Below, piece by piece: positions 3,370 through 30,853 of a stretch of 64,000 nucleotides of DNA. Position 1 is the stretch's first letter, and each line of letters starts with the position of its first letter. The position numbers and the translations under genes were made by a program. This DNA is from Escherichia phage Ec_Makalu_002. The stretch is taken from sequence record MN709127.1; one strand, given 5' to 3'. The notes under the pieces were generated by a model. It had not been told where the DNA came from and made no database searches. It worked only from the letters and a program-made list of their open reading frames with translations.

Positions 3370-3957
3370 CTAAATATCTAACCAAGACAAGTCAGATCCG
3401 CCCAAGATTTTTTCGACGGCGGATCTATTTTCTTGATGATATAAGTTAAAACATGGTATCCCATGTCTACGGGCAACATAAACAGCAATTCGAGTTCCTC
3501 CCGAAACGATTCCATTAACTTCTTTCGCCCAGAATATCACACAATCTACAGGATCATCAAGTGTCTCACCTAAGACTTGAGCAACATTTCTAGAAAACAG
3601 ATTTTGCATGTATAACGGTATAGAACGAGGATTATCATAAACGTGTTCTAATTCATCCATCGCCAGATTTTTTTGTTCTAAGGTTTGCCATGCAATCACA
3701 TCATGACCGTTATGCTTGTGATCATAAAACTTCCAATTTGGAATGAAAATTTTTCTATAATCTGGATCGTAATACTTCATGAAAGCATTGTCCATACCGT
3801 AAGCCCCTCCAGAATGCGCTACAACGCGATTTTCTGACAATACCCTCCCAATGGTACTAGCCATTATCAAAATGTCGCTAGGCGCTTTTCTAGAGCCTAT
3901 TAAAGCACATCTACGAAGTGGTTTTACTCCAAATAGATCTTGTAACTGGTCAAACAT
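3370..3957 (-). CDS. DprA/Smf-like (SLOG-type Rossmann) protein
   Basis: GGAGGA RBS; motifs ALIGSRKAP...VAHSGGAYGMDNAF...GGTRIAVYVARRHGIPCF resemble the DprA Rossmann domain (GSR / SG-A-G-D / GT...A...G-P). Confidence 0.5.
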   Translation of the reverse strand: MFDQLQDLFGVKPLRRCALIGSRKAPSDILIMASTIGRVLSENRVVAHSGGAYGMDNAFMKYYDPDYRKIFIPNWKFYDHKHNGHDVIAWQTLEQKNLAMDELEHVYDNPRSIPLYMQNLFSRNVAQVLGETLDDPVDCVIFWAKEVNGIVSGGTRIAVYVARRHGIPCFNLYHQENRSAVEKILGGSDLSWLDI

Positions 3958-4108
3958 AATATTTCCTCCATAGAAAGCAATATCATACTACAAGTTAATA
4001 ACAAATACAAGTATCCGCGTAGCGGAAGCGAGCACAGCGAGCAATAAAACACTTCCAGTAATTGATTAATAAATGTTCGAAACAAATTTTTATTATTCTA
4101 TAAGATAA

Positions 4109-4282
4109 GTCTTCGTTTTGATCATAATTTAATCATACATGTAAAAACGACACAAAAGGATATCGCTTCGCGAACTCCTACGGAGTATAACATTTGTGTT
4201 ACATTATGTGGTGATTAATAATTAATCAAAGATACATTTTCTATGTTCTAAAGATCTTTCTTCGTTTTGATCATAATTTAAT
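4109..4282. repeat. direct repeat of about 25 bp, two copies about 150 bp apart, in a 400-bp non-coding region
   Basis: cttcgttttgatcataatttaatca at 4109-4133 and again at 4258-4282. Confidence 0.6.
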
Positions 4283-4335
4283 CAAACAGTATTAATATTG
4301 TCCATATGTAAACTAAAATTATGTCAGTAATAGAT

Positions 4336-4362
4336 ACAAAAAAGCCGCCCCGAAGGACGGCT
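4336..4362 (-). terminator. rho-independent terminator after ORF 4371..4808
   Basis: Minus-strand hairpin AGCCGUCC-UUCG-GGGCGGCU followed by U-run. Confidence 0.65.
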
Positions 4363-4370
4363 AATGTTAA

Positions 4371-4808
4371 TTATTTGTTGATAACGATCTGATTTCGGCG
4401 AATGGTAACATTACTCTTAGAGATGATCAGATCATCCGGCACTACGTTAGTTTTGTATGGTTGGAAGCGAACAAGCATCTGATTGCGTTTAGACCCTTCC
4501 TTAATCTTGATTTCCATCTGGATATTGTTGCCTACGTGAGCAACCGCAATTTCACCTTTATTCTCATAGACCCACTTGCTGGTAACGTCTCCCGCAAAAG
4601 CCTTAATAACTTGCAATGCTTCGTCGTATGCGGTAGAGCTGTGAACTTTCAGAAGGCCAGCCGTAGCAAGACGGGAGCAGGTGATCGCCGGAGATTGCCA
4701 AACATCAACATTAATTTGCTCAATCAGAGTAACACCGCCCTGATCAACTGCTTTGAATGCTTCGAACATTGCCTTTTTCATTGCTACGTGGTTTTTACGG
4801 AATTTCAT
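4371..4808 (-). CDS. hypothetical protein (145 aa)
   Basis: Track ORF with GAGGTG RBS. Confidence 0.7.
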   Translation of the reverse strand: MKFRKNHVAMKKAMFEAFKAVDQGGVTLIEQINVDVWQSPAITCSRLATAGLLKVHSSTAYDEALQVIKAFAGDVTSKWVYENKGEIAVAHVGNNIQMEIKIKEGSKRNQMLVRFQPYKTNVVPDDLIISKSNVTIRRNQIVINK

Positions 4809-28421: not shown

Positions 28422-28898
28422 TTATTTTTCTTGATGCTCGCGCTCGTACTTTTCGAAATAAAATTCTACTGGCTGATCGTGGATTGAAAGCAAGCCAAAG
28501 CGTTTAGCCGCACGTAATCCCATGTTACGTTGAATGTACTTCTGGAAGTTCTCGCGTATACACTTACGCCAGTATTCTAAGCCCATACAGCTTTTGTAAA
28601 GATTGCATTGCACACAAGCCGGATTCATGTTGTCAAGTATATCGTGCTCCGGTTTATGCATTCCTACAACCTTATACTTCCACGACCCATCATCATTACG
28701 GGCAATTCGTCCATTTTCATCATAGACTACTTTTGAGCGTCGCAATACTGGTTTGATGTGGTCTGCGTGCCAGCGATCCCCTAGTTCCTCGCCACAATAG
28801 GCACAACGTCCACCGTATTTCATTTTCAGGATCTGGCGTTGCTCTTTCTTTGACAATTTTTTAGGTTTAGGGGCTTTCGCCCCTTCATTATCACACAT
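28422..28898 (-). CDS. HNH endonuclease
   Basis: CAYCGEEL...WHADHIKP...CVQCN (His-Me finger with flanking Cys pairs). Confidence 0.7.
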   Translation of the reverse strand: MCDNEGAKAPKPKKLSKKEQRQILKMKYGGRCAYCGEELGDRWHADHIKPVLRRSKVVYDENGRIARNDDGSWKYKVVGMHKPEHDILDNMNPACVQCNLYKSCMGLEYWRKCIRENFQKYIQRNMGLRAAKRFGLLSIHDQPVEFYFEKYEREHQEK

Positions 28899-30393
28899 CG
28901 AATACCTCTTTTACTGTATTTGCAGTGGTCTTGTCGTAGCGAATACGTTTGATGATTGGGAGAAATAAAGAGAACTCCGGTTCATCTTCTTTACGTGATT
29001 TGCTGCGGATATATCCGTTGCATGTCATCTCAATGACTTTTCCAATCAGGTTATGACGGTCAGCCCATAACATTTCTCGGTCAAGTTCATTTCGACGATC
29101 GAACGGAATTACACGTTCAATACCATCATCACCTTTTTCGGTTGTGGTGTCTGTCAATCCCGATCCGGTGTTAGTCATCATTCGTCCGCACGCACTACGG
29201 ACAGTAAAACCGCCTACCTTGTTAGGTTCTTTACTGTGCGGATATACATCAACAATTTCCGCGTCGAAGTCAATCACTTCTTTAAATTTAACCTGGTCTT
29301 TACTGCGACGATCTTCAAATACACCATGTAAATTTTTAAGGATAATACCTTCTAATCCCATGTTGACATAACGATGATATACTTCGCGAGCTTCATCGAT
29401 ATTGTTAACTACAGTATTTTCGATTATCTGAACACGAGGATCGTTAAGTTCTTCAACAATCTGTTTTAGTTCTTCGAATCGATCTTTATATTGCTTCGTT
29501 GCTTTCTCGTTTCCGTAATACACATCACGGTCGATAACATCCCAGACAGTGTAAACAATACATTGGGCTTCTTCTTTTGGAATAGTTCCTTTCAGTGATT
29601 TGTTGAGGATACCATTTCCGGTCTGACGGTCTGCAACAACGGATTCTTTCACTGCTTCCGCTACTGGCGTTAATGGCATTTCCTCTTCTTCAAATATCCA
29701 TGATAGAGTACCATCATAAACGCTCTCAACGAAGTTCTGCGCTGGTGTTTGAGAAAGGGTAGGCATATATACCAACTCACCATCTAAAACAATTCCACGG
29801 CCTCGTAGACGCTCTAAAACAGCAAACAAATCATCCAGCCCCTGATAGGTATTACCTGAACGGGTATAGATTGCTAATGTTTCTCCGTCAATATCAGCCA
29901 TACCACGAGCGCCATCGCTTTTAAGTTGTGCATACGCCGGATATTTGATATTGGCAATAGTCTTATCAGAACATGACGATGCAAGGTGGCACGGCTGCTG
30001 AGGAATCAGCTTCTTCCATACCTTGTTTGCGGTGGTAGCGGAACAACCGCATTCCAGATCACGATTCAGGACCATCATTGCAACTTTAGCATCATCTTCT
30101 GACAAGCAAGTCAGAGTATCGGTAACTAGCTGTAATGCAGCATTACCAGTTACTTGACGCGTGGCAAGTTTATTTTTAAAGACCTGTAATGCACCGGATA
30201 AAGACAATACAGACGAATAGCGAGACGGTTTATCGTATTTCTTTACGCCAAACGTAACCTGCTTGCAATATGCCAGATAAAAGCATTCTTTCAGCGTTTC
30301 ATTGCTTGCAGATTCTTTCAGGATCTTTTCTTTCAGCGATGTTTTGTCAGTAGCTGCAAGCTGATTAATGATATTAAGAATTGACATTTTCAC
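28891..30393 (-). CDS. 30: ATP-dependent DNA ligase gp30
   Basis: 500 aa; adenylation motif AQLKSDGARG; overall resemblance to T4 DNA ligase. Confidence 0.9.
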   Translation of the reverse strand: MKMSILNIINQLAATDKTSLKEKILKESASNETLKECFYLAYCKQVTFGVKKYDKPSRYSSVLSLSGALQVFKNKLATRQVTGNAALQLVTDTLTCLSEDDAKVAMMVLNRDLECGCSATTANKVWKKLIPQQPCHLASSCSDKTIANIKYPAYAQLKSDGARGMADIDGETLAIYTRSGNTYQGLDDLFAVLERLRGRGIVLDGELVYMPTLSQTPAQNFVESVYDGTLSWIFEEEEMPLTPVAEAVKESVVADRQTGNGILNKSLKGTIPKEEAQCIVYTVWDVIDRDVYYGNEKATKQYKDRFEELKQIVEELNDPRVQIIENTVVNNIDEAREVYHRYVNMGLEGIILKNLHGVFEDRRSKDQVKFKEVIDFDAEIVDVYPHSKEPNKVGGFTVRSACGRMMTNTGSGLTDTTTEKGDDGIERVIPFDRRNELDREMLWADRHNLIGKVIEMTCNGYIRSKSRKEDEPEFSLFLPIIKRIRYDKTTANTVKEVFDV

Positions 30394-30853
30394 CTCGTTT
30401 TGTTAAACGTTCACGAATATCGTTTAGGATACTACAAAATTCCGATTCGGTCAATATGGTCTTTAACGGATCAGTTCCACCTATGCTATGACGCAATTTC
30501 TTATTTCCGGTAGCGAGCAATGCTTTACAAAAATCTGGGTTATTTCGTGCCATCGTAACAAATGCCAGATGTACCAGTCTGTAATAATGCTCACTCATTC
30601 GATGAATCGGGCGACCCTGAAAATATAGCATGTGATTCTCTATCTTTTCAGTCCTTCCGGTTCTTTTTGCTTTGCAGCCGTGCATCAAAAAGATTTCTCT
30701 TTGTCTCTGAGGGTTCTTAAATCTTAGCCCCTGTAAAAATCCTTCTGTGCTGTTAATATCGCAACCAAATAGACGGAATGGCCTTTTATTGAAATTACTC
30801 AACTCGCCAGATGGATAAGGTCCACCCGCATAGATATCAATTTCAGAAGTCAT
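30374..30853 (-). CDS. NADAR (YbiA-like) domain protein
   Basis: GELSNFN, STEGFLQGLRF and LLATGNKKL correspond to the YbiA motifs G.FSNF, T.EH.FQA.KF and LLAT...KL. Confidence 0.55.
   Translation of the reverse strand: MTSEIDIYAGGPYPSGELSNFNKRPFRLFGCDINSTEGFLQGLRFKNPQRQREIFLMHGCKAKRTGRTEKIENHMLYFQGRPIHRMSEHYYRLVHLAFVTMARNNPDFCKALLATGNKKLRHSIGGTDPLKTILTESEFCSILNDIRERLTKRGENVNS

What the first reader, a model, noticed from the sequence alone, without database searches (positions are those of the whole stretch)
3370..3957. DprA/Smf-like (SLOG) Rossmann protein after gene 24, where T4 has rnlB
GSRKAP ... SGGAYGMD ... GGTR...G.P motifs resemble the DprA/Smf nucleotide or ssDNA-binding domain. The SLOG superfamily also includes LOG-type nucleotide hydrolases and predicted nucleotide sensors in conflict systems. 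The function in a T4-like phage is unclear: a recombination mediator, or a nucleotide-processing enzyme that could interfere with host signalling.
Basis: partly seen in the sequence, partly recalled or inferred. Interest (0 to 1): 0.55.

Follow-up and report, generated by a model that had tools for sequence, protein, structure and literature searches.

The report
Stand-alone DprA-like SLOG protein of RB49-type phage
The gene is real and encodes a small, single-domain relative of the bacterial DNA-uptake protein DprA; databases already label this widespread phage family that way, nobody has tested what it does, and it most likely binds single-stranded DNA during phage DNA repair or recombination.

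Summary
Window 3370-3957 (minus strand) is a 195-aa gene with a strong ribosome-binding site and is under purifying selection. It lies tail-to-tail against gene 24, where T4 has rnlB. The protein is identical to that of phages RB49 and Phi1, and RefSeq already calls it "DprA-like DNA recombination-mediator protein" (PHROG 768, E 1e-60).

- **DprA signatures:** both published ssDNA-binding motifs are present (G-S-R; L-x-x-R-N).
- **LOG signature:** the hydrolase motif PGGxGTxxE is absent.
- **Departures from DprA:** the protein scores below the Pfam and TIGRFAM thresholds, has no SAM or DML1 domain, and lacks the third DNA-binding arginine.

Relatives are fused to NADAR, Macro, DUF4326 and RecJ domains. 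They sit next to RNA ligase 2 in other T4-like phages, and near SSB, Sak and RdgC on plasmids.

Best reading: an accessory protein that binds ssDNA or a nucleotide and serves phage DNA repair or recombination. A role handling ADP-ribose in counter-defence is a serious rival. The family is already catalogued, its function is untested, and interest is modest.

The parts
3370..3957 (-). DprA-like stand-alone SLOG gene (195 aa; equals Phi1 ORF164 and the RB49 orthologue)
3889..3897 (-). Codons for G21-S22-R23, DprA motif 1 (G-S/T/A-R), equivalent to HpDprA G50-R52
   Evidence: At least 88% conserved in 148 family members. Aligned to DprA GSR/GTR by phmmer and hhalign. Motif defined in PMC3950713.
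3790..3813 (-). Codons for S49-G50-G51-A52-Y-G54-M-D56, the glycine-rich SLOG loop (DprA SGxAxGID)
   Evidence: D56 is invariant; S49, G50, A52 and G54 are at least 95% conserved. Aligned to DprA.
3586..3600 (-). Codons for L120-F-S-R123-N124, DprA motif 2 (F/L/Y-x-x-R-N/D), equivalent to HpDprA F140-N144
   Evidence: R123 is 99% and N124 96% conserved. hhalign places it on the DprA FPRRN stretch. Motif definition.
3484..3501 (-). Codons for G153-G154-T155-R-I-A158, aligned to DprA SGSLxTA; not the LOG PGGxGTxxE motif
   Evidence: G153, G154 and T155 are 99% conserved; alignment. The HpDprA R170 equivalent is V159 and is not conserved.
3964..3968 (-). Shine-Dalgarno GGAGG, 7 nt before the ATG
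   Evidence: Read directly from the sequence. Also annotated as a ribosome-binding site in the Makalu_001 record.
3958..4370 (-). 413-bp non-coding leader upstream of the gene. It holds the terminator of the upstream gene (4343-4362) and two copies of a 77-nt repeat. No promoter was securely identified.
   Evidence: No Rfam family matches and there is no rnlB remnant.

Best explanation
The gene encodes a minimal, single-domain member of the DprA branch of the SLOG Rossmannoid superfamily. One pocket is lined by four conserved elements: the loop after strand 1 (G21-S22-R23), the glycine-rich loop S49-G-G-A-x-G-x-D56, the helix L120-x-x-R123-N124-x-x-Q127 and the loop G153-G154-T155. In Helicobacter DprA the equivalent pocket holds one nucleotide of single-stranded DNA, with the GSR arginine acting as a gate.

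By homology, the phage protein binds a nucleotide unit, most likely as part of ssDNA. I propose it serves as a dispensable accessory factor of phage DNA metabolism. It would coat or mark ssDNA made during replication, recombination or damage, and help bring other enzymes to it. Candidates are a recombinase (UvsX or RecA), nick-sealing or end-processing enzymes, or DNA de-ADP-ribosylating hydrolases.

Shown here: the fold, motif conservation, purifying selection, family breadth, domain fusions and gene neighbourhoods. Inferred only: ssDNA binding itself, any dimerisation, the partner proteins and the timing of expression.
For: - **Profile evidence:** the family profile finds only DprA chains in the PDB at E below 1e-2. 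hhalign against a DprA alignment gives probability 86%, E 5e-6 and 149 columns covering the whole Rossmann domain. 99 of 148 members hit Pfam DNA_processg_A; none hit the LOG, YpsA or YAcAr models.
- **Motifs:** both motifs that Wang et al. proposed as signatures of ssDNA-binding DprA domains are present and nearly invariant. R23 and R123 correspond to HpDprA R52 and R143, whose mutation cut ssDNA affinity roughly 170- to 300-fold.
- **Charge:** the family's median pI is 8.6.
- **Phage contexts:** neighbours are DNA ligases, helicases, RecJ, RNase T-like exonuclease, PhoH and nucleotide-metabolism genes. One relative is a RecJ fusion.
- **Plasmid contexts:** the family lies near SSB and an SRAP peptidase on one plasmid, and near a Sak annealing protein and RdgC on another.
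- **Fusion partners:** NADAR and Macro domains are enzymes known to remove ADP-ribose from bases of ssDNA (PMC11543638 and PMC11257639, listed). This fits an ssDNA-targeting module.
- **Literature:** Iyer et al. 2021 proposed phage DprA/Smf as an extra ssDNA-binding protein.
Against: - **No experiment:** I found no experiment on any phage member.
- **Weak sequence similarity:** similarity to DprA is significant only over the first roughly 55 residues. Scores fall below the Pfam (22.3 against 29.6) and TIGR00732 (14.4 against 191) cut-offs.
- **Missing DprA features:** the third DNA-binding arginine (HpDprA R170, ShosA R261) and the invariant DprA glutamate (E196 in E. coli Smf numbering, alignment A4) are absent. 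The SAM and DML1 domains are also absent. The SAM domain is needed for ShosA stability.
- **Possible small-molecule site:** the family has its own invariant polar residues (D56, Q127, T155, N171), which could equally form a small-molecule site.
- **Charge of this protein:** the RB49 protein itself is not basic, with pI 6.4.
- **Redundancy:** RB49 already has UvsY, the T4-type recombination mediator.
- **Ambiguous fusions:** the fusions to NADAR, Macro and DUF4326 are what Iyer et al. 2022 used to predict that viral SLOG domains process ADP-ribose derivatives.
Confidence: 0.45

Rival explanations
1. ADP-ribose or NAD-derivative handler in counter-defence. The pocket binds, and perhaps cleaves the N-glycosidic bond of, a free ADP-ribose-derived molecule such as a cADPR isomer or another host immune signal or toxic metabolite. 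The protein would act as a sponge or enzyme alongside phage NADAR, Macro or Nudix proteins.
Against: The LOG catalytic motif PGGxGTxxE is absent. No member hits the LOG, YpsA or YAcAr Pfam models. The viral YAcAr-type SLOGs form a separate structural group, at TM about 0.45 against 0.6-0.8 within this family. ThsA-type SLOG is a weaker structural match than DprA. NADAR and Macro are now known to act on ADP-ribosylated ssDNA, so the fusions do not require a free-ligand role. Identified fusions are a small minority: about 7 of the 150 best-scoring representatives, with 4 longer proteins left unassigned. Most neighbourhoods are DNA-metabolism genes.
Confidence: 0.27
2. Partner of RNA ligase 2 in nucleic-acid repair. 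The protein binds the single-stranded or nicked substrate and hands it to Rnl2, or processes the ends first, as part of a two-gene repair cassette. RB49 would retain only half of that cassette.
For: rnlB is immediately upstream, co-directional and abutting or overlapping the DprA-like gene in Mexia and Moonvirus CF1 (the 24-hoc locus). The same holds at a different locus in Slopekvirus KP1 and Pseudotevenvirus IME-CF2. These ligases are T4 RnlB orthologues at 45-57% identity. RnlB is the -1 neighbour in 10 of 75 IMG/VR loci, with one more at position -3.
Against: RB49 has the gene but no RnlB anywhere, and T4 has RnlB without this gene in that region. Most family members, in Pseudomonas, Vibrio, Acinetobacter and jumbo phages and on plasmids, have no RNA ligase nearby. 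The adjacency is confined to T4-like phages and may reflect shared descent of a cassette rather than shared function.
Confidence: 0.1
3. Antitoxin mimic. The phage supplies a DprA-like protein that stands in for the unstable DprA-like antitoxins ShosA or PsyrA after host shut-off. This would neutralise ShosTA or PsyrTA abortive infection.
Against: The PADLOC hits cover only residues 15-61, the generic SLOG core, and are no better than the hit to ordinary DprA. The protein lacks the SAM domain that ShosA needs for stability, and lacks the R261 equivalent. ShosA ranks below canonical DprA in both structure searches. The family is present in about 3% of phage records across many hosts, far broader than I would expect for those two systems (my own expectation, not measured here).
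Confidence: 0.06

Closest known systems
Bacterial DprA/Smf (Pfam PF02481; structures 4LJK/4LJR from H. pylori, 3UQZ from S. pneumoniae, 3MAJ from R. palustris)
   Same: SLOG Rossmann fold, and the best structural match. Homology runs across the whole Rossmann domain. The G-S-R and L-x-x-R-N ssDNA-binding motifs, the SGxAxGxD loop and the (I/Y)P strand are all kept.
   Different: Scores fall below the family thresholds. The protein is a single 195-aa domain without SAM or DML1 domains. It lacks the HpDprA R170 equivalent and the DprA-invariant Glu and third Arg of RNR. It has its own invariant Q127, T155 and N171. The family is phage- and plasmid-borne and fused to NADAR, Macro or DUF4326. Dimerisation and RecA loading are untested.
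PHROG 768 / RefSeq 'DprA-like DNA recombination-mediator protein' of phages (e.g. Phi1 ORF164, YP_001469510.1)
   Same: It is this family, and for Phi1 it is the identical protein.
   Different: Nothing differs. The name is a homology label only, and I found no functional test.
ShosA and PsyrA, the DprA-like antitoxins of the ShosTA and PsyrTA defence systems (PDB 8ZVA, 9VZO)
   Different: No SAM domain, no C-terminal degron region, no neighbouring PRTase toxin, and no R261 equivalent. Only weak partial HMM hits.
Viral SLOG domains surveyed by Iyer, Burroughs, Anantharaman and Aravind 2022 (YpsA-like/YAcAr clade) and the ThsA SLOG sensor of Thoeris
   Same: The same superfamily, and the same fusion partners (NADAR, Macro, DUF4326) as those authors describe.
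LOG / 'lysine decarboxylase-like' nucleotide phosphoribohydrolases (PF03641)
   Different: The PGGxGTxxE motif is absent and there is no Pfam hit.

Membership tests
DprA/Smf (PF02481, TIGR00732) | Scores above the curated family thresholds | tested here: not met
   PF02481 scores 22.3 bits against a cut-off of 29.6, and the match covers only residues 15-60. TIGR00732 scores 14.4 against 191.
DprA/Smf (PF02481, TIGR00732) | DprA-type Rossmann (SLOG) fold | tested here: met
DprA/Smf (PF02481, TIGR00732) | ssDNA-binding motif 1, G-S/T/A-R (Wang et al. 2014) | tested here: met
   G21-S22-R23 are 98%, 88% and 97% conserved in 148 members.
DprA/Smf (PF02481, TIGR00732) | ssDNA-binding motif 2, F/L/Y-x-x-R-N/D (Wang et al. 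2014) | tested here: met
   L120-F-S-R123-N124. L is 82%, R 99% and N 96% conserved.
DprA/Smf (PF02481, TIGR00732) | Third DNA-binding arginine (HpDprA R170, ShosA R261) | tested here: not met
   The aligned position is V159, and V is the family consensus.
DprA/Smf (PF02481, TIGR00732) | Accessory SAM and/or DML1 (winged-helix) domain | tested here: not met
   The 195-aa protein is a single domain. The model shows no extra domain, and Pfam finds none.
DprA/Smf (PF02481, TIGR00732) | Homodimer that binds ssDNA and loads RecA | not testable with these tools
   This needs biochemistry or multimer modelling. No multimer prediction was available.
PHROG 768 (phage DprA-like) | Full-length HMM match | tested here: met
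   E 1.2e-60, covering residues 15-187 of the protein and positions 4-181 of the 191-position profile.
LOG phosphoribohydrolases (PF03641) | PGGxGTxxE catalytic motif and a family HMM match | tested here: not met
   The sequence has SGGTRIAVY with no second G-T and no Glu. There is no Pfam hit in this protein or in any of the 148 relatives.
YpsA / YAcAr SLOG clades | Family HMM match (DUF1273, PF10686) | tested here: not met
   No hit in 148 members. In the polyvalent proteins YAcAr occurs as a separate domain next to this one. In BFVD the YAcAr proteins match at TM about 0.45.
ShosA/PsyrA antitoxins | Full-length match plus a neighbouring PRTase-type toxin gene | tested here: not met
   The PADLOC hits cover only residues 15-61. 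The neighbours are gene 24 and a 145-aa ORF with no Pfam family.
ThsA-type SLOG signal sensors | Binds cADPR isomers and is fused to an effector domain | not testable with these tools

The most novel reading that the evidence does not exclude
The DprA-like SLOG domain is an ssDNA-directed module of a phage system that reverses ADP-ribosylation of DNA. It would recognise ssDNA, or the ADP-ribosylated base flipped into its pocket, and recruit or complement a glycohydrolase. The glycohydrolase would be NADAR (gp30.3/AdfN, encoded at 30374-30853 in this phage) or Macro, which are fused to this domain in other elements. The system would undo DarT-type toxins. In the boldest version, the SLOG domain itself cleaves a base-ADP-ribose N-glycosidic bond.
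Probability: 0.12. Interest if true: 0.75.

Novelty: already known. Interest (0 to 1): 0.3.

Why it matters
As a discovery it matters little. The identical protein already carries this annotation, and viral SLOG and DprA-like proteins have been surveyed computationally.

As an open problem it has some value. The family is in about 3% of sequenced phage genomes and in thousands of metagenomic clusters, it is under purifying selection, and it has never been tested. Whether a DprA-type pocket in phages binds ssDNA or an ADP-ribose-derived molecule is a cheap experiment. The answer would assign a function to a large block of phage genes. It could also connect DprA-like proteins to DNA ADP-ribosylation defence (DarTG) or to the still unexplained role of T4 RNA ligase 2.

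Tried and rejected
- **rnlB remnant in the gap:** I asked whether the 413-bp gap upstream (3958-4370) is a decayed rnlB. tblastn with three RnlB proteins finds nothing significant in the window or in the whole RB49 genome. Rejected.
- **Structured RNA in the gap:** only two sub-threshold Rfam matches, at 21-24 bits against gathering scores of 80-95. Rejected.
- **Promoter class:** sigma-70-like sites are no more frequent than in shuffled sequence. I saw no T4 late TATAAATA box and no clean PeSL when reading against the PeSL description. Expression timing is left open.
- **LOG-type hydrolase:** the motif is absent and there are no HMM hits. Rejected as a family assignment.
- **Unavailable or failed tools:** the afdb50 fold library was not available. 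The genome-contig scan failed three times for lack of a conserved peptide stretch.
- **Literature gaps:** Burroughs et al. 2015, which defines the SLOG clades, is not held, so clade names rest on later papers by the same group. The supplements of PMC9503650 are not held. No mention of DprA or SLOG appears in the HIDEN-SEQ preprint (phage gene essentiality) or the NADAR specificity paper.
- **Coordinates and multimers:** model coordinates cannot be read by scripts, so I could not do pocket electrostatics, a superposition on the DprA-dT complex, or a homodimer test.

Full report
**What is there.** Window 3370-3957 holds one ORF on the minus strand. It runs from the ATG at 3957 to the TAA at 3370-3372 and encodes 195 aa. 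A GGAGG lies 7 nt before the start codon. The stop codon abuts the stop codon of gene 24, which is on the plus strand.

The window is a Krischvirus (RB49/Phi1/GEC-3S group). Its first 9 kb are 99.3% identical to phage Ec_Makalu_001 and 97.4% identical to Phi1. The protein is identical in Phi1, Makalu_001 and RB49. Against two more distant orthologues the substitutions are mostly synonymous. One comparison gives 13 synonymous to 1 non-synonymous changes (dN/dS 0.02), and the other gives dN/dS 0.115. This is a real gene under selection.

**It is already annotated.** The Phi1 RefSeq record calls the identical protein (ORF164, YP_001469510.1) "DprA-like DNA recombination-mediator protein". The name comes from PHROG 768, which the protein matches over its full length at E 1.2e-60.

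The curated bacterial models do not accept it. Pfam DNA_processg_A scores 22.3 bits against a cut-off of 29.6 and matches only residues 15-60. TIGR00732 scores 14.4 against 191.

The family is large:
- tblastn finds it in 1434 of 50,697 phage records, spanning Klebsiella, Pseudomonas, Escherichia, Vibrio, Aeromonas and Acinetobacter phages and jumbo phages.
- A profile search of 1.84 billion representative proteins finds 4319 clusters at E up to 1e-3 and 2731 at E up to 1e-10. Among the 150 best-scoring representatives, nearly all are stand-alone proteins of 170-200 aa.
- It also occurs on 28 plasmids.

**Fold and family placement.** With a 32-sequence alignment, AlphaFold2 gives a confident model: pLDDT 93.9 and pTM 0.89, an alternating strand/helix pattern.

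A profile built from 148 family members finds only DprA chains in the PDB below E 1e-2, and again only through the N-terminal third. Profile-profile alignment against five DprA sequences extends the match to 149 columns, the whole Rossmann domain, at probability 86% and E 5e-6.

Of the 148 members, 99 give weak hits to DNA_processg_A and 21 to SLOG cluster4. None hit the LOG, YpsA or YAcAr models. In the viral structure library, this family matches at TM 0.6-0.8. The YspA/YAcAr-type viral SLOG proteins form a separate group at TM about 0.45.

Within SLOG the nearest branch is DprA, though by a modest margin.

**Motif test.** Wang et al. (PMC3950713) proposed two motifs as signatures of ssDNA-binding DprA domains. 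These are G-S/T/A-R (Hp G50-R52) and F/L/Y-x-x-R-N/D (Hp F140-N144). They contrasted them with the LOG signature PGGxGTxxE. R52E and R143E lowered ssDNA affinity about 300- and 170-fold.

The phage protein has G21-S22-R23 and L120-F-S-R123-N124, and both are nearly invariant in the family (R23 97%, R123 99%, N124 96%). hhalign places them on the DprA motifs. I checked the residue numbering against the 4LJR chain.

Three features are not shared with DprA:
- The LOG motif is absent.
- The third arginine used by HpDprA (R170) and ShosA (R261) aligns with V159 and is not conserved.
- The DprA-invariant Glu of the SE motif and the last Arg of RNR are missing.

The family has invariant polar residues of its own: D56 100%, Q127 97%, T155 99% and N171 97%. 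There is no SAM or DML1 domain. The family's median pI is 8.6, but this protein's is 6.4.

**Genomic context.** The DprA-like gene does not replace it, though. In Moonvirus CF1 and phage Mexia the order is hoc ... rnlB, then the DprA-like gene, then gene 24 on the opposite strand.

In Slopekvirus KP1 and Pseudotevenvirus IME-CF2 the same rnlB/DprA-like pair sits at another locus, between srd and a nicotinamide phosphoribosyltransferase. The two genes abut or overlap there. These ligases are RnlB orthologues at 45-57% identity to T4. RnlB is the immediate upstream neighbour in 10 of 75 IMG/VR loci, with one more at position -3.

RB49 has no RnlB at all, but it does have UvsY and UvsW. The 413-bp gap upstream of the gene is not an rnlB remnant. 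So the pair is a cassette of T4-like phages, and RB49 keeps one half of it.

Neighbours elsewhere vary but are mostly DNA and nucleotide metabolism genes:
- ATP- or NAD-dependent DNA ligase, helicases, dCMP and dCTP deaminases, PhoH, RecJ, an RNase T-like exonuclease, dNMP kinase, GMP reductase, a methyltransferase and HslV-like peptidases.
- On plasmid pNL1, an SRAP peptidase and SSB.
- On an Aromatoleum plasmid, a Sak single-strand annealing protein and RdgC.

**Domain fusions.** Identified fusions make up about 7 of the 150 best-scoring representatives; four longer proteins remain unassigned. The same domain, with the same motifs, is fused to:
- an N-terminal NADAR domain (three proteins);
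- DUF4326 (one protein);
- RecJ (one protein);
- in two 1480-aa polyvalent proteins, YAcAr and cluster4 SLOG domains plus NADAR;
- a C-terminal Macro domain in an Erythrobacter plasmid protein.

The phage in the window encodes its own gp30.3-type NADAR at 30374-30853 (E 5e-39).

NADAR enzymes, including T4 gp30.3 (AdfN), remove ADP-ribose from guanine in DNA and defeat DarTG1 (papers listed). Macro domains of the DarG type do the same for thymidine; this last point rests on established knowledge of DarG.

**Literature.** I found no experiment on any phage member. Iyer et al. 2021 suggested that jumbo-phage DprA/Smf could be an extra ssDNA-binding protein. Iyer et al. 2022 surveyed viral SLOG domains and noted their fusions to Macro, NADAR and DUF4326. 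They predicted that these domains sense or degrade ADP-ribose-derived immune signals.

ShosA, a DprA-like antitoxin, binds ssDNA and RecA and neutralises its toxin indirectly. The PADLOC hits of the phage protein to PsyrA and ShosA are weak and limited to residues 15-61.

**Interpretation.** The conserved residues line the canonical SLOG pocket, which in DprA holds one nucleotide of ssDNA. The solid inference is that the protein binds a nucleotide moiety there.

Several lines point to ssDNA as the ligand: retention of both DprA DNA-binding motifs, the basic character of the family, the DNA-metabolism, SSB, Sak and RdgC contexts, and the RecJ fusion. The NADAR and Macro fusions fit this too, because those enzymes work on ADP-ribosylated ssDNA.

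Other evidence leaves a free-ligand role open. Sequence identity to DprA is low beyond the N-terminal third. One DNA-binding arginine is lost. The family has its own polar invariants. The published contextual prediction also stands.

My estimates are:
- 0.45 for an accessory factor of phage DNA repair or recombination that binds ssDNA;
- 0.27 for an ADP-ribose-derivative binder or enzyme;
- 0.10 for an Rnl2-coupled repair role;
- 0.06 for an antitoxin mimic.

These are not fully exclusive.

**Verdict.** The observation and fold assignment are confirmed. The finding rediscovers an existing annotation of a catalogued but uncharacterised phage family. Interest is modest (0.3).

The most novel reading still open is an ssDNA-directed partner, or enzyme, for reversing DNA ADP-ribosylation. 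I put it at about 0.12.

Noticed in passing
window 4063-4139 and 4212-4288 (within the non-coding gap 3958-4370): A 77-nt direct repeat with two copies 149 nt apart and 73% alike. It includes an exact 26-mer (TGATTAAATTATGATCAAAACGAAGA on the minus strand, at 4110-4135 and 4259-4284) that occurs nowhere else in the 64 kb. Each copy begins a tiny ORF starting MIKTK. It lies between the terminator at 4343-4362(-) and the DprA-like gene. It may be related to the PeSL-type shuffling elements described for RB49 and Phi1, but it does not look like a clean PeSL.
   Followed up: partly
window 30374-30853 (-): A 159-aa gp30.3-type NADAR protein (Pfam Phage_30_3, E 5e-39) lies next to the DNA ligase gene (28891-30393). 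It is a homologue of T4 AdfN, the anti-DarTG1 factor. The same domain type is fused to the DprA-like SLOG family in metagenomic proteins.
   Followed up: partly
L003 3001-4543; L018 1991-3546; L015 1953-3543; L004 2915-4531: In four other T4-like genera, RNA ligase 2 (rnlB) sits immediately upstream of the DprA-like gene and is co-directional with it. The pair occurs at two different genomic loci and often with overlapping stop and start codons. RB49 lacks RnlB entirely.
   Followed up: yes
L006 6727-7155; L007 4902-5813; L009 739-2192: Genes annotated as HslV-family peptidase or ATP-dependent protease lie within about 3 kb of the DprA-like gene in three unrelated phages: Nankokuvirus G1, Mydovirus Ro1 and Plateaulakevirus 2L372D.
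   Followed up: no
L103 6010-6522; L104 5992-6516; L105 4824-6071: The same SLOG family is on 28 plasmids, 12 of them conjugative. On pNL1 it is near an SRAP peptidase and SSB. On an Aromatoleum plasmid it is near a Sak annealing protein and RdgC. On an Erythrobacter plasmid it is fused to a Macro domain, among SocA antitoxin and ImmA/IrrE genes.
   Followed up: partly
L012 11188-12048: A protein matching Pfam Tad6 (PF25188) lies about 5 kb downstream of a DprA-like gene in a metagenomic phage contig that also carries RecJ, PIN-PhoH and an RNase T-like exonuclease.
   Followed up: no
window 4371-4808 (-): The 145-aa ORF upstream (Phi1 ORF165) has no Pfam family. BLASTP found no similarity to any other flanking gene in the small comparison set, which held five genes downstream of the DprA-like gene in other phages, four RnlB ligases and one Aeh1 upstream ORF. 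It is conserved within Krischvirus only.
   Followed up: partly
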